A stretch of DNA of 64,000 bases from Escherichia coli (lineage in GTDB: Bacteria; Pseudomonadota; Gammaproteobacteria; Enterobacterales; Enterobacteriaceae): NCBI RefSeq assembly GCF_044324875.1, contig NZ_CP172185.1; one strand, given 5' to 3'. A program made the position numbers. This document shows positions 53,301 through 56,300 of the stretch, piece by piece. Positions within the stretch are counted from its first letter, which is position 1. Each line of letters opens with the position of its first letter.

Positions 53301-56300
53301 CTTGCTGGTTCTGGCACTCTGCACGGCGTTTTTCCCATTCAAAGATTTTCCGGCCTTTTTCAAGACACTCCGGCAACCCTGCGCTGTAAATACGTTTGCC
53401 CGTGAGCGGATTAGCATCTCCTTCGTGGGCGGCGTTGCGTAAACGAATTTCAACAGGATCAATACCTAACGCTGTCGCGGCGTCATCAAGCATAGACTCA
53501 ACGGCAAATACGACTTGTGGCGCGCCATAACCACGCATCGCACCAGCCGAGGGGAGGTTGGTATAGCAGGTCTTTGAACTGTAAGCGTAGGCACAACGAG
53601 GATAAAGGTAAGCGACTTTATTTCCGCCCGCAGAAGCGATGGAGTGCCCGTGAGATGCATAAGCGCCGGTGTTAGACAGAACATCCAGACTATAACCTTT
53701 CAATGTTCCGTCGCGGTTCACGCCCATTTGCCCGTCAATAGTAAAAGCGTGGCGGGTACGGGTTGCGAGGAAACACTCTTCACGGCTAAGGGAAACTTTC
53801 ACCGGAATGCCGCCAAGCTTGCTGGTCAGGAATGCCGCCATTGGCTCTTCCAGCACATCCTGTTTATTACCAAAACCGCCACCGACAAACGGTTTGATAA
53901 CTCGTACGCATGACCAGGGAATATCCAGCGCCTGACCAACTACGCGGCGAACAATGTGCGGGATCTGGGTGCTGGAAACGATGGTAATTCGAGAGTCATC
54001 CTCCATCCATGCCAGCGATGTCACGCTTTCCATATGACAATGTTGAATAACGGGAGTCTGATAGTGCCCCTGCACCTGGTAATCGGCGGCATCGATTGTT
54101 TGTTGGACATTACCCGTCGACATCGAGCTTTGTTTTAGTAAATTGCCGCCGTTATGGATTGGTGCAGCGTCATCTGCCAGCGCCGCTTCTGGCGTGGTGA
54201 TAACGGGTAATTCTTGCCACTCAATGCTGACCAATTGCGCCGCTTTTTCTGCCGTGAGTTCATCACGGGCCACGACGATGGCAACGGCGTCACCATGATG
54301 ACGAACATGGCGAGTTAGCAGTGCGCGATCGGCGGTATCGCGCTTGTTTTCATCAAGTGTCCAGGCGTGCCCAGCTGTAGCGAATGGGATATCAGGTACA
54401 TCTTCCCAGGTAAAAATCGCCAGTACGCCTGGTAAACTTCTGGCTTGTTCATCATTAATACTTACGGCATAACCATGTGCGATAGGGCTACGTACATATT
54501 TCGCGTAACACATGCCCGCCATAACATAATCGTCAGTATATCGTGCCCGCCCGGTGACCTTAGCAATGGCATCTACGCGCATGCATGATTCACCTGTAGC
54601 GGTTGCTTCCCGCGCTTCCATAGAAATCCCCTCGATTTGAACATTTGGTTCTTATGGCAAAGATTTAGTCTAAGCAGGCAAGATTTACGCCAGAAACGAC
54701 GATAAGCGTTAAGGGAGGAAGGAAGTGTGATGATGTTAAAAAAACACAGATATGATACGAAACAGGACCCTGAATAGGGGCAGTGATACGTATCAATATG
54801 AGTGGCGATAAAATCAATGTGATAAATTGGGATTATTACGCATCAGGATGGGAAATAGGGTAAATGAGTCAGGAAATTCGATACATCTACAGTGAATATT
54901 TTGCTGATGATACTTCCCTTTGCCAAATGAAATTAACCTCTTTCTCTATTACCGCGTTTTTCCAGAAGCAAGAGATTGGGTATCAAGAGGCTGGCTGCTA
55001 TGATATGGCGTCTTGTTTTTTAAGCGAGGAAAGATTTTGAGTGCGGGACGCCTGAATAAAAAATCTCTGGGTATCGTGATGTTGTTATCGGTTGGACTGC
55101 TTTTGGCGGGCTGCTCGGGTAGCAAATCATCCGATACAGGAACGTATTCCGGCTCCGTTTACACCGTGAAACGGGGGGATACGCTATATCGTATTTCGCG
55201 CACCACGGGAACCAGCGTAAAAGAGCTTGCGCGACTGAACGGCATTTCCCCCCCTTACACCATTGAAGTTGGTCAGAAACTAAAACTGGGTGGGGCGAAA
55301 AGTAGCAGTACACGTAAATCAACCGCCAAATCAACGACCAAAACCGCATCGGTTACACCGTCATCAGCAGTACCGAAATCTTCCTGGCCGCCAGTAGGGC
55401 AACGTTGTTGGTTATGGCCAACGACAGGGAAAGTTATCATGCCGTATTCGACAGCTGATGGCGGCAATAAAGGGATTGATATCTCAGCTCCACGGGGTAC
55501 ACCTATTTACGCCGCGGGTGCAGGAAAGGTGGTGTATGTGGGCAACCAGCTGCGTGGCTACGGTAATCTCATCATGATTAAACACAGTGAAGATTACATT
55601 ACGGCTTACGCCCATAATGACACGATGCTGGTAAATAATGGGCAAAGCGTGAAGGCTGGGCAAAAAATCGCCACTATGGGGAGCACTGATGCGGCATCGG
55701 TTCGCCTGCATTTCCAGATTCGTTACCGTGCTACGGCAATTGATCCGCTGCGTTACTTGCCGCCTCAGGGCAGCAAGCCAAAATGCTGATGGCGAATTAA
55801 TCAGCAGTCAGCAGCGCGGCACTTGCTAAGGAGAGCGTAAGGTTTATAATGCCTTACGCATCTCGAAGCGGGCGTAGTTCAATGGTAGAACGAGAGCTTC
55901 CCAAGCTCTATACGAGGGTTCGATTCCCTTCGCCCGCTCCAATTTATCTTCACCTCATCAACCTGCCATTTTTGTTGTATCTGATTTTCTATATTATCTT
56001 AATTCAATCGCTTCAGACTTTTCGCAATCGCCGTAATACTTCCCCATTTTTTTGTAAATAAAAGCGTTTACGCAATGCAATCCATTTGTAACAACCCAGG
56101 TAAAATACCTTATTTTCAAGTTGTTAAATAAGTGGTTATCTACGCTTTTAACAAACGATTGATGGAATCTTTTATGAAAGGGAAATCTACATTAACTCTT
56201 CTGCTCGCTGGTATATTTTCATGCGGCACATGCCAGGCGACAGGGACAGAAGTGACGAGTGACTCCGTATTTAACATTCTTAATTCCAAGGGGGAAGCAA

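What the first reader, a model, noticed from the sequence alone, without database searches (positions are those of the whole stretch)
54583..55036. xdhA-ygeR intergenic region: palindrome GATACGTATC, GTGATAAATTGGG and a weak sigma54-like element
Upstream of xdhABC (minus strand) the region contains a perfect 10-bp palindrome GATACGTATC (54785..54794), next to the reverse-complemented CTCATATTGAT core (54792..54802), GTGATAAATTGGG (54819..54831) and a weaker sigma54-like -24/-12 element (minus strand TGGCGTAAATCTTGCC, 54677..54692). The combination of motifs shared with the ygfK and ygeV upstream regions suggests one regulon across the whole purine cluster.
Basis: partly seen in the sequence, partly recalled or inferred. 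Interest (0 to 1): 0.55.

Follow-up and report, generated by a model that had tools for sequence, protein, structure and literature searches.

The report
Enhancer and sigma-54 promoter of xdhA
The stretch upstream of the E. coli xanthine dehydrogenase operon holds an already documented sigma-54 promoter plus a conserved pair of upstream binding sites, apparently undescribed, that recur at the other sigma-54 promoters of the purine/urate cluster and are most likely the docking sites of the activator YgeV.

Summary
All four motifs are at the stated coordinates, but they differ in value.

- **Sigma-54 element:** TGGCGTAAATCTTGCC is not weak or new. It is sigma-54 ChIP-seq site OS29, listed as experimentally confirmed in EcoCyc, and is conserved from Escherichia to Aeromonas.
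- **Palindrome:** GATACGTATC (really 12 bp, TGATACGTATCA) is at chance level. Its right half is not conserved even within Escherichia.
- **Two other motifs:** CTCATATTGAT and the GTGATAA part of GTGATAAATTGGG are the cores of two 15-bp dyads, (T/C)(A/C)TCA-N3-TGA(T/G)A. The dyads lie 21 bp apart, at about -131 and -152 from the predicted start site. Their position is fixed within about 2 bp in most Enterobacteriaceae.
- **Regulon test:** A matrix built only from non-Escherichia xdhA sites puts five of its top six hits in the 64-kb window in the four intergenic regions that carry published sigma-54 sites (ygfK, ygeW/ygeV, ygfT/uacT, xdhA). All other intergenic regions score 4.2 or less.
- **Third element:** A TCACA box sits exactly 38 nt upstream of the -24 element. 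It is probably a CRP half-site.

Best reading: a YgeV-type enhancer driving a known sigma-54 promoter. The regulon idea is supported but was already proposed; only the operator motif appears new.

The parts
54811..54825 (-). Distal enhancer dyad (UAS-1): TTATCACATTGATTT on the minus strand, centred about -152 from the predicted start site.
   Evidence: Matrix score 15.7. TCA-N3-TGA lies at -128 to -131 from the -24 element in most Enterobacteriaceae. It is a conserved block in the 20-sequence alignment.
54790..54804 (-). Proximal enhancer dyad (UAS-2): CACTCATATTGATAC on the minus strand, centred about -131.
   Evidence: Matrix score 16.0. It lies at -107 to -111 from the -24 element in nearly all Enterobacterales examined. 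It forms a 21-bp direct repeat with UAS-1. The 34-bp composite matches its own reverse complement pattern.
54784..54795 (.). Its left half is the outer arm of UAS-2; its right half is not a conserved element.
   Evidence: The right half is replaced in other Escherichia lineages (TGATACACTGC, TGATAAACTGC, TGATACGCTCT). The palindrome is at chance level in shuffles.
54726..54745 (-). Conserved T-tract plus TCACA box (GTTTTTTTAACATCATCACA on the minus strand). TCACA is at 54730-54726, that is -64 to -60. In CRP register it reads TTTTA-ACATCA-TCACA, centred at -67.5.
   Evidence: TCACA is exactly 38 nt upstream of the T of TGGC in 31 of 41 sequences, from Escherichia to Aeromonas. E. coli PygfK and the Kluyvera ygfM promoters show the same offset. 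No conserved IHF consensus was found here.
54677..54693 (-). Sigma-54 promoter, CTGGCGTAAATCTTGCC. The -24 GG is at 54691-54690 and the -12 GC at 54679-54678.
   Evidence: It is identical to ChIP-seq site OS29 of Bonocora et al. 2015, marked as experimentally confirmed in EcoCyc. TGGCG(T/C)-N5-TTGC is conserved upstream of xdhA in Enterobacterales and, as (A/G)GGCGC-N5-TTGC, in Aeromonas.
54666..54666 (-). Predicted transcription start, 19 bp downstream of the motif centre.
   Evidence: This follows the rule used in PMC4591121, whose stated distance of 84 nt to the K-12 xdhA start reproduces here (54666 to 54582). It is inferred, not mapped.
54619..54633 (-). Shine-Dalgarno GAGGGG (54633-54628) and the conserved ATG (54621-54619), the likely true xdhA start. 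This gives a leader of about 45 nt and 13 extra N-terminal residues (MEAREATATGESC).
   Evidence: The ATG and GGGGA are conserved across genera, and the extension shows a coding-type substitution pattern. PGAP annotates the 765-aa form. tblastn alignments begin 39 nt upstream of the K-12 start.
54580..54582 (-). The xdhA start codon annotated in K-12 (MRVD...). It is probably an internal codon.
   Evidence: In other genera this codon is CTG, TTG, AAA, AAG or CGG. The K-12 record starts xdhA here.
39303..39317 (.). Same dyad upstream of ygfK, TTATCATTATGATAA. It is the best hit in the window. A weaker partner lies 20 bp away at 39283-39297.
   Evidence: Matrix scores 21.1 and 8.7. It lies about 176 nt upstream of the published sigma-54 site OS31 at 39119-39135. 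A homologous enhancer-plus-promoter module sits upstream of ygfM in Kluyvera.
48972..48986 (.). Same dyad in the ygeW-ygeV divergent region, TTCTCATATTGATAT. A second conserved dyad lies at 48944-48958.
   Evidence: Matrix score 18.7. It is invariant as ATATCAATATGAGAA in 9 genera and is TTATCAA(A/T)(A/T)TGATAA in Buttiauxella and Morganella. The sigma-54 site of ygeW is at 48756-48772.
23933..23947 (.). Same dyad in the uacT-ygfT divergent region, TTCTCATATTGATAT.
   Evidence: Matrix score 18.7. It lies about 173 nt upstream of the published sigma-54 site OS32 at 24112-24128.
49141..50919 (+). ygeV (isrR), the only sigma-54 activator gene in the cluster and the proposed binder of the dyads.
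   Evidence: Pfam finds PAS, Sigma54_activat (E = 2e-70), an AAA lid and a C-terminal Fis-type HTH_8. It is annotated as a sigma-54 interaction domain protein.

Best explanation
The xdhA-actS intergenic region is the control region of a sigma-54-dependent xdhABC promoter. RNA polymerase with sigma-54 sits as a closed complex on CTGGCGTAAATCTTGCC (54693-54677).

Two 15-bp dyads of the form (T/C)(A/C)TCA-N3-TGA(T/G)A lie upstream, 21 bp (two helical turns) apart, centred at about -131 and -152. Together they form the enhancer (upstream activating sequence). I infer that each dyad binds a dimer of the cluster's own activator YgeV/IsrR, which has a PAS domain, an AAA+ domain and a Fis-type helix-turn-helix. 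On an activating signal, not identified here, the bound dimers would assemble into the active oligomer, reach the promoter by DNA looping, and use ATP hydrolysis to open it.

Looping would be helped by a conserved element at a fixed position between enhancer and promoter. This is a TCACA box at -64 to -60 with a T-tract, most likely a CRP half-site, which would also link expression to catabolite control.

Transcription would start near 54666. Translation would start at the conserved ATG at 54621, not at the K-12 annotated ATG at 54582.

The same dyad is present at the ygeW/ygeV, ygfK and ygfT/uacT promoters, so the cluster would be one YgeV regulon.

**Shown:** the sequence elements, their conservation, their fixed geometry, their restriction to sigma-54 promoter regions, and (from the literature) sigma-54 occupancy.

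**Inferred:** that YgeV binds the dyads, the oligomerisation and looping steps, the role of CRP, and the start site.
For: 1. **Sigma-54 occupancy.** The -24/-12 string is identical to ChIP-seq site OS29, with enrichment 11 times threshold and EcoCyc status 'confirmed'. Sites are also reported at ygeW, ygfK and ygfT.
2. **Co-conservation.** The promoter and the two dyads are conserved together upstream of xdhA in about 27 genus-level lineages, while the sequence between them diverges freely. The dyads sit at -128 to -131 and -107 to -111 from the -24 element.
3. **Independent matrix test.** A matrix trained only on non-Escherichia xdhA sites ranks ygfK (21.1), ygeW/ygeV (18.7), ygfT/uacT (18.7) and the two xdhA sites (16.0, 15.7) among its top six hits in 64 kb. 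All 15 other intergenic regions score 4.2 or less. Shuffles of each region reach the observed score in at most 0.4% of trials. Another 25 kb of unrelated K-12 DNA gives at most 10.4.
4. **Specificity in other genomes.** In 20-kb loci from other genera, hits of 13 or more fall almost only upstream of xdhA, in the ygeV-ygeW region, and upstream of ygfM in Kluyvera next to a PygfK-like sigma-54 motif.
5. **YgeV is the right kind of protein.** It has the domain set of a DNA-binding sigma-54 activator and is the only such gene in the cluster.
6. **Published context.** A YgeV iModulon contains xdhABC, ygeWXY, hyuA, ygfK-ssnA-ygfM-xdhD, ygfT and uacT, and that paper cites reduced ygfT expression in a ygeV mutant.
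7. **The enhancer belongs to xdhA, not actS.** It stays at a fixed distance from the xdhA promoter in genomes where actS is not the neighbour.
Against: - No direct binding data for YgeV were found in any searched paper.
- In Kluyvera, Hafnia, Enterobacillus and Edwardsiella, the motif and promoter are present but no sigma-54 activator gene lies within 10 kb on either side. Co-occurrence with ygeV could therefore not be checked genome-wide.
- Site arrangement differs between promoters: a 21-bp mirrored pair at xdhA, one strong plus one weak site at ygfK, 29-bp spacing at ygeW, and a single site at ygfT.
- The training sites were picked with a TCA-N3-(T/C)GA pattern, which fixes the core columns of the matrix.
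- The CRP reading of the TCACA box is weak in Enterobacteriaceae. The left half is TTTTA, with neither of the two guanines of TGTGA.
Confidence: 0.72

Rival explanations
1. The dyads are real operators, but a regulator other than YgeV binds them. It could be a second, unlinked transcription factor or a repressor, with YgeV acting elsewhere or from solution.
For: Several genera carry the motif and the promoter with no activator gene within 10 kb. No binding data exist. The half-site TGATA/TATCA is short, AT-rich and superficially like a Fur box.
Against: The sites occur almost only 100-210 bp upstream of sigma-54 promoters, which is enhancer geometry rather than operator geometry. The Fur consensus does not fit: no match at up to 3 mismatches anywhere in the window, and the best match in the xdhA region is 11 of 19 and lies away from the dyads. 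YgeV is the only sigma-54 activator in the cluster and has an HTH_8 domain. The site nearest ygeV is the most invariant one.
Confidence: 0.15
2. The perfect palindrome GATACGTATC/TGATACGTATCA is itself the key operator for a dimeric regulator.
For: It is a perfect 12-bp palindrome next to the shared core. A related copy, TGATACGAAACA, lies 31 bp away.
Against: The right half is absent from other Escherichia lineages and from every other genus. A palindrome of 12 bp or more arises in 13% of shuffles, and 21 exist in the window. No similar palindrome occurs at the other promoters of the cluster.
Confidence: 0.04
3. The upstream motifs regulate the divergent gene actS (ygeR) rather than xdhA.
For: The region is a divergent intergenic region. 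The dyads lie 212-247 bp upstream of the actS start.
Against: The dyads keep a fixed distance to the xdhA sigma-54 promoter in Kluyvera, Trabulsiella, Yokenella, Buttiauxella, Morganella and Aeromonas, where actS is not adjacent. The part of the region nearest actS is largely replaced between Escherichia lineages, apart from a conserved stretch next to the actS start.
Confidence: 0.04
4. The sharing of motifs between intergenic regions is a by-product of AT-rich composition or chance, not of regulation.
For: The half-sites are short and AT-rich. GTGATAAATTGGG is not enriched. One exact copy of CTCATATTGATA lies inside ygeY, where it encodes DAHIDT, and that copy is not conserved in orthologues.
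Against: Composition-matched shuffles of each region almost never reach the observed scores. Other AT-rich intergenic regions in the window score 4.2 or less. Conservation of position and sequence extends across orders.
Confidence: 0.02

Closest known systems
NtrC enhancer at glnAp2 (E. coli), the textbook sigma-54 activator arrangement (from established knowledge)
   Same: Two dyad sites on the same face of the helix, more than 100 bp upstream of a -24/-12 promoter. The activator has an AAA+ domain and a Fis-type helix-turn-helix. Action is presumed to be by looping.
   Different: The recognition sequence differs: TATCA-N3-TGATA type here against TGCACC-N5-GGTGCA. Spacing is 21 bp rather than about 32 bp. 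YgeV has a PAS-type sensor and no receiver domain. Binding has not been demonstrated.
PrpR-dependent prpBCDE promoter (sigma-54 with CRP input; from established knowledge, not re-read here)
   Same: A catabolic sigma-54 promoter with an operon-specific activator encoded nearby and CRP sites between enhancer and promoter. Here conserved CRP-type sites lie upstream of ygeW and ygfK, and a TCACA half-site lies upstream of xdhA.
   Different: The xdhA box lacks a recognisable left half in Enterobacteriaceae. No conserved IHF site was found. CRP involvement at xdhA is an inference.
Published sigma-54 site OS29 / EcoCyc xdhA promoter and the YgeV iModulon (PMC4591121, PMC10602906)
   Same: The same -24/-12 sequence and the same proposed regulon membership.
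   Different: As far as I could read them, those papers give no activator-binding motif, no enhancer position and no TCACA box.
Fur box (GATAATGATAATCATTATC)
   Same: AT-rich TGATA/TATCA hexamer-like repeats.
   Different: The half-site orientation and spacing are opposite. The consensus matches at best 11-13 of 19 positions, and not at the xdhA dyads.

Membership tests
Sigma-54 (RpoN) dependent promoter | GG and GC doublets exactly 10 bp apart in a TGGCAC-N5-TTGCW-like context, correctly oriented upstream of the gene | tested here: met
   CTGGCGTAAATCTTGCC at 54693-54677 on the xdhA strand. It is conserved in orthologous regions.
Sigma-54 (RpoN) dependent promoter | Occupancy by sigma-54 in vivo | not testable with these tools
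   Reported in the literature: ChIP-seq peak OS29, 11 times threshold, EcoCyc 'experimentally confirmed'.
Sigma-54 (RpoN) dependent promoter | Transcription depends on rpoN and on an AAA+ activator | not testable with these tools
   PMC4591121 cites a microarray study that placed xdhA among sigma-54-responsive genes. No ygeV-dependent xdhA expression data were found.
Enhancer (UAS) of a bacterial sigma-54 activator | Dyad-symmetric sites about 80-200 bp upstream of the -24/-12 element, conserved together with it | tested here: met
   Two dyads at -131 and -152, with positions fixed to about 2 bp in most Enterobacteriaceae. A 21-bp repeat.
Enhancer (UAS) of a bacterial sigma-54 activator | The same site recurs at the other promoters controlled by that activator | tested here: met
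   Top matrix hits lie at ygfK, ygeW/ygeV and ygfT/uacT and in no other intergenic region. The site is conserved in the ygeV-ygeW region of 12 further lineages (6 other genera) and at the Kluyvera ygfM promoter.
Enhancer (UAS) of a bacterial sigma-54 activator | Direct binding of the activator (here YgeV) to the sites | not testable with these tools
   No EMSA, footprint or ChIP data for YgeV were found.
CRP binding site | TGTGA-N6-TCACA with both half-sites recognisable | tested here: inconclusive
   The right half is 5 of 5 and invariant at a fixed offset. The left half is 3 of 5 (TTTTA) in Enterobacteriaceae and 4 of 5 (TGGGA) in Aeromonas. Clear CRP-type sites exist at ygeW and ygfK.
IHF site between enhancer and promoter | WATCAANNNNTTR conserved in position | tested here: not met
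   Best matches are 6-8 of 9 positions, at positions that differ between genera.
Fur box | Match to GATAATGATAATCATTATC | tested here: not met
   No match at up to 3 mismatches in the window. At most 11 of 19 in the xdhA region, away from the dyads.
Known RNA family in the leader or intergenic region | Rfam covariance model match | tested here: not met
   No Rfam hit with an E-value of 1 or less in 54400-55200.

The most novel reading that the evidence does not exclude
The 15-bp dyad (consensus TTATCAwwwTGATAA, inner arms often TGAG/CTCA) is the so far undescribed operator of YgeV/IsrR. Together with a TCACA box fixed at -38 from the -24 element, it defines a rigid enhancer-bend-promoter module. 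This module is conserved from Escherichia to Aeromonas and is reused at several operons of the anaerobic urate/purine pathway. That would make the regulon computable in any genome and give direct handles for re-wiring urate degradation in gut E. coli.
Probability: 0.6. Interest if true: 0.5.

Novelty: new member of a known kind. Interest (0 to 1): 0.4.

Why it matters
The xdh/yge/ygf cluster encodes the recently described anaerobic urate/purine degradation pathway of gut bacteria. Papers from 2025 state that its regulation is poorly understood and that strain differences in urate consumption probably reflect regulation.

A defined activator site, a fixed-geometry architectural box and a corrected xdhA start give concrete targets for mutagenesis, reporter design and engineering of urate-degrading probiotic strains. 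They also allow YgeV regulons to be predicted in other Enterobacterales.

It is not a new kind of mechanism. It is a standard sigma-54 enhancer arrangement whose promoter part is already documented.

Tried and rejected
- **Palindrome as operator.** Rejected: not conserved and at chance level.
- **GTGATAAATTGGG as a 13-bp shared motif.** Rejected: not enriched, and only GTGATAA is conserved. The ygfK look-alike GTGATAAATGGGC (39260-39272) contains only a TGATA half-site and does not score with the matrix.
- **Fur box.** Rejected.
- **IHF site.** No conserved consensus.
- **Riboswitch or other RNA family in the region.** None found.
- **Sigma-70 promoters and terminators.** Nothing above expectation: 1 promoter-like site against 1.6 expected, and no terminator.
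- **58-aa ORF at 54864-55040 overlapping the actS start.** Rejected as a gene. Its ATG is destroyed in K-12, and the sequence is replaced in other Escherichia lineages.
- **Extra regulon members.** No site above 10.4 near aegA or ybiY-ybiW.
- **Literature search for the motif strings and for YgeV binding data.** Nothing relevant found. Iwadate & Kato 2019 and Reitzer & Schneider 2001 could not be opened.
- **ygeY-internal exact copy of CTCATATTGATA.** It encodes DAHIDT and is not conserved at the DNA level in orthologues, so it is treated as coincidence.
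Full report
**Identity of the region.** The window is the E. coli purine/urate catabolism cluster in reverse orientation relative to K-12. It runs from uacT, ygfT and ygfK through ygeW and ygeV to xdhCBA, followed by actS (formerly ygeR) and glyU. xdhA is on the minus strand and actS starts with TTG at 55037.

**Check of the observation.** All four strings are at the stated coordinates.
- *Palindrome.* It is really 12 bp, TGATACGTATCA (54784-54795). It is unremarkable: a perfect palindrome of 10 bp or more appears in 42% of dinucleotide shuffles of the region, and one of 12 bp or more in 13%. 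The window holds 21 palindromes of 12 bp or more.
- *GTGATAAATTGGG.* It is not enriched.
- *CTCATATTGATA.* It occurs exactly four times in 64 kb against 0.00 expected. Three copies are in the uacT-ygfT, ygeW-ygeV and xdhA-actS intergenic regions. The fourth lies inside ygeY, where it encodes DAHIDT.

**The sigma-54 element is already known.**
- CTGGCGTAAATCTTGCC is, letter for letter, sigma-54 ChIP-seq site OS29 of Bonocora et al. 2015. It has an enrichment of 11 times threshold and a matrix score of 10.9, lies 84 nt from the K-12 xdhA start, and is marked as experimentally confirmed in EcoCyc.
- The same table lists sites for ygeW, ygfK and ygfT, which I located in the window. The paper also describes a functional intragenic promoter inside yqeC.
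- Lamoureux et al. 2023 describe a YgeV iModulon containing xdhABC, ygeWXY, hyuA, ygfK-ssnA-ygfM-xdhD, ygfT and uacT.
- So both the promoter and the idea of one regulon are published. I found no published YgeV binding motif.

**Phylogenetic footprinting.** One scan of species-representative genomes with the XdhA N-terminus returned 67 loci, from Escherichia to Aeromonas.
- *Promoter.* TGGCG(T/C)-N5-TTGC is present about 80-120 nt upstream of the MRVD codon in all Enterobacterales lineages examined except Serratia, which has TGGCCTG-N5-TTGCT. In Aeromonas it appears as (A/G)GGCGC-N5-TTGCT.
- *Dyads.* Anchoring on the -24 element shows two TCA-N3-TGA dyads at -128 to -131 and -107 to -111 in nearly every Enterobacteriaceae sequence. 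The DNA between and around them is freely diverged, even among Escherichia lineages.
The GTGATAA part of the 13-mer belongs to the distal dyad.
- *Symmetry.* The outer arms are TATCA/TGATA and the inner arms are often TGAG/CTCA, so the 34-bp composite is itself symmetric.
- *Palindrome.* Its right half (CGTATCA) is absent from other Escherichia lineages and from all other genera.

**Regulon test.** I built a symmetric 15-column matrix from 38 xdhA-upstream sites of non-Escherichia genera and scanned the window.
- The top hits are ygfK|mocA 39303 (21.1), ygeW|ygeV 48972 (18.7), uacT|ygfT 23933 (18.7), a site inside yqeC at 40693 (16.4), then xdhA 54790 (16.0) and 54811 (15.7).
- Every other intergenic region scores 4.2 or less. 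Dinucleotide shuffles of the four regions reach the observed maxima in 0 to 0.4% of 2000 trials.
- Another 25 kb of K-12 DNA around aegA and ybiY gives at most 10.4.
- In the 20-kb loci of other genera, hits of 13 or more fall almost only in three places: upstream of xdhA; in the ygeV-ygeW region, where the site ATATCAATATGAGAA is invariant in nine genera; and, in Kluyvera, upstream of ygfM, about 175 bp before a PygfK-like TGGT(G/A)(C/T)G-N5-TTGCT.
- The enhancer and the promoter therefore move together when gene order changes.

**Who binds.**
- YgeV has PAS, a sigma-54 AAA+ domain, an AAA lid and a C-terminal Fis-type HTH_8. It is the only sigma-54 activator in the cluster. I infer that it binds the dyads.
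- This was not testable here. In Kluyvera, Hafnia, Enterobacillus and Edwardsiella no activator gene lies within 10 kb of xdhA, so genome-wide co-occurrence remains unchecked.
- A Fur box is excluded.

**A third conserved element.**
- TCACA lies exactly 38 nt upstream of the T of TGGC in 31 of 41 sequences, and 1 nt off in most of the rest, from Escherichia to Aeromonas. In the window it is at 54730-54726, which is -64 to -60.
- E. coli PygfK and three Kluyvera ygfM promoters have CTCACA at the same offset.
- In CRP register the partner half is TTTTA in Enterobacteriaceae (3 of 5, no guanine) and TGGGA in Aeromonas (4 of 5).
- ygeW has a conserved TTTGTGAT-N6-CACA, and ygfK has a perfect TGTGAGTTCATTCACA between enhancer and promoter. 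The inferred centres, about -67.5, -77.5 and -97.5, differ by multiples of 10 bp.
- A 2025 paper mentions a native Crp site in the ygeV-ygeW region and glucose repression of the pathway.
- No conserved IHF consensus exists here.
- I favour CRP as an architectural co-factor at about 0.5. The binder is unresolved.

**Start codon.**
- The ATG at 54621 and its GAGGGG Shine-Dalgarno are conserved. The 13-codon extension shows synonymous-type variation. The K-12 'start' at 54582 is CTG, TTG, AAA or CGG in other genera.
- PGAP already uses the long form. K-12 uses the short form.

**Mechanism proposed.** YgeV dimers sit on the two dyads. On an activating signal they oligomerise and contact the closed sigma-54 complex by looping over a bend fixed at about -67. 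ATP hydrolysis then opens the promoter. Transcription starts near 54666, giving a 45-nt leader.
- *Shown here or in the cited papers:* the elements, their conservation and geometry, and sigma-54 occupancy.
- *Inferred:* YgeV binding, the identity of the signal, the looping aid and the start site.

**Verdict.** The promoter and the regulon concept are already known. The dyad operator, its rigid placement and the -38 TCACA box appear to be new details of an ordinary sigma-54 enhancer system.

Noticed in passing
window 54580-54621 (minus strand): The K-12 annotation starts xdhA at ATG 54582 (752 aa). The upstream ATG at 54621, with its GAGGGG Shine-Dalgarno, is the one conserved across genera, while the K-12 start codon is CTG, TTG, AAA or CGG elsewhere. 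PGAP records already use the 765-aa form.
   Followed up: yes
window 54726-54745; also 39168-39172 (PygfK): A TCACA box sits exactly 38 nt upstream of the -24 TGG in xdhA promoters from Escherichia to Aeromonas. The same offset is seen in E. coli PygfK and in Kluyvera ygfM promoters. The binder is unknown; candidates are a CRP half-site, a promoter-proximal YgeV half-site, or something else.
   Followed up: partly
window 48863-48878 (minus strand), ygeW-ygeV intergenic region: AGCCAAACGTTTTCGT is conserved in nine genera. It matches the PurR operator consensus, as I recall it, at 13 of 16 positions. This suggests purine-repressor input into ygeW and/or ygeV.
   Followed up: partly
window 48811-48832 and 39198-39213: CRP-type sites lie between enhancer and sigma-54 promoter. 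TTTGTGATCAACCCCACACATT is upstream of ygeW and is conserved across genera. A perfect core, TGTGAGTTCATTCACA, is upstream of ygfK.
   Followed up: partly
window 40693-40707 (inside yqeC): The fourth-best dyad hit in the window (TTCTCAATGTGAGAA, score 16.4) lies 216-230 bp downstream of the published intragenic sigma-54 promoter PyqeC (40450-40466) and 161 bp upstream of yqeB. It could be a downstream enhancer or a coincidence.
   Followed up: partly
window 49066-49084, about 60 bp upstream of the ygeV start: A weaker dyad-like site (ATATCATCATGATCT, score 11.6) overlaps a block conserved across genera (ATGATA(C/T)TAAC on the other strand) that looks like a -10 element for ygeV. This hints at autoregulation.
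   Followed up: no
window 54864-55040 (plus strand): A 58-aa ORF ends in TTGA, overlapping the TTG start of actS. It is not a gene: K-12 lacks its ATG, and the sequence is replaced in other Escherichia lineages.
   Followed up: yes
window 54830-55000 versus L003-L007: The distal part of the xdhA-actS intergenic region is almost completely different between the K-12/window lineage and other Escherichia lineages, including a block of about 25 bp present only in the former. The enhancer, TCACA box, promoter and leader are nonetheless retained.
   Followed up: partly
window 50929-50952: A 24-bp perfect palindrome, ATCCGGCCTGAATTCAGGCCGGAT, lies between the convergent ends of ygeV and xdhC. It is probably a bidirectional terminator hairpin.
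   Followed up: no
window 45913-45924 (inside ygeY): An exact copy of CTCATATTGATA encodes the peptidase motif DAHIDT. The DNA-level match is absent from ygeY orthologues, so it is probably a coincidence.
   Followed up: partly
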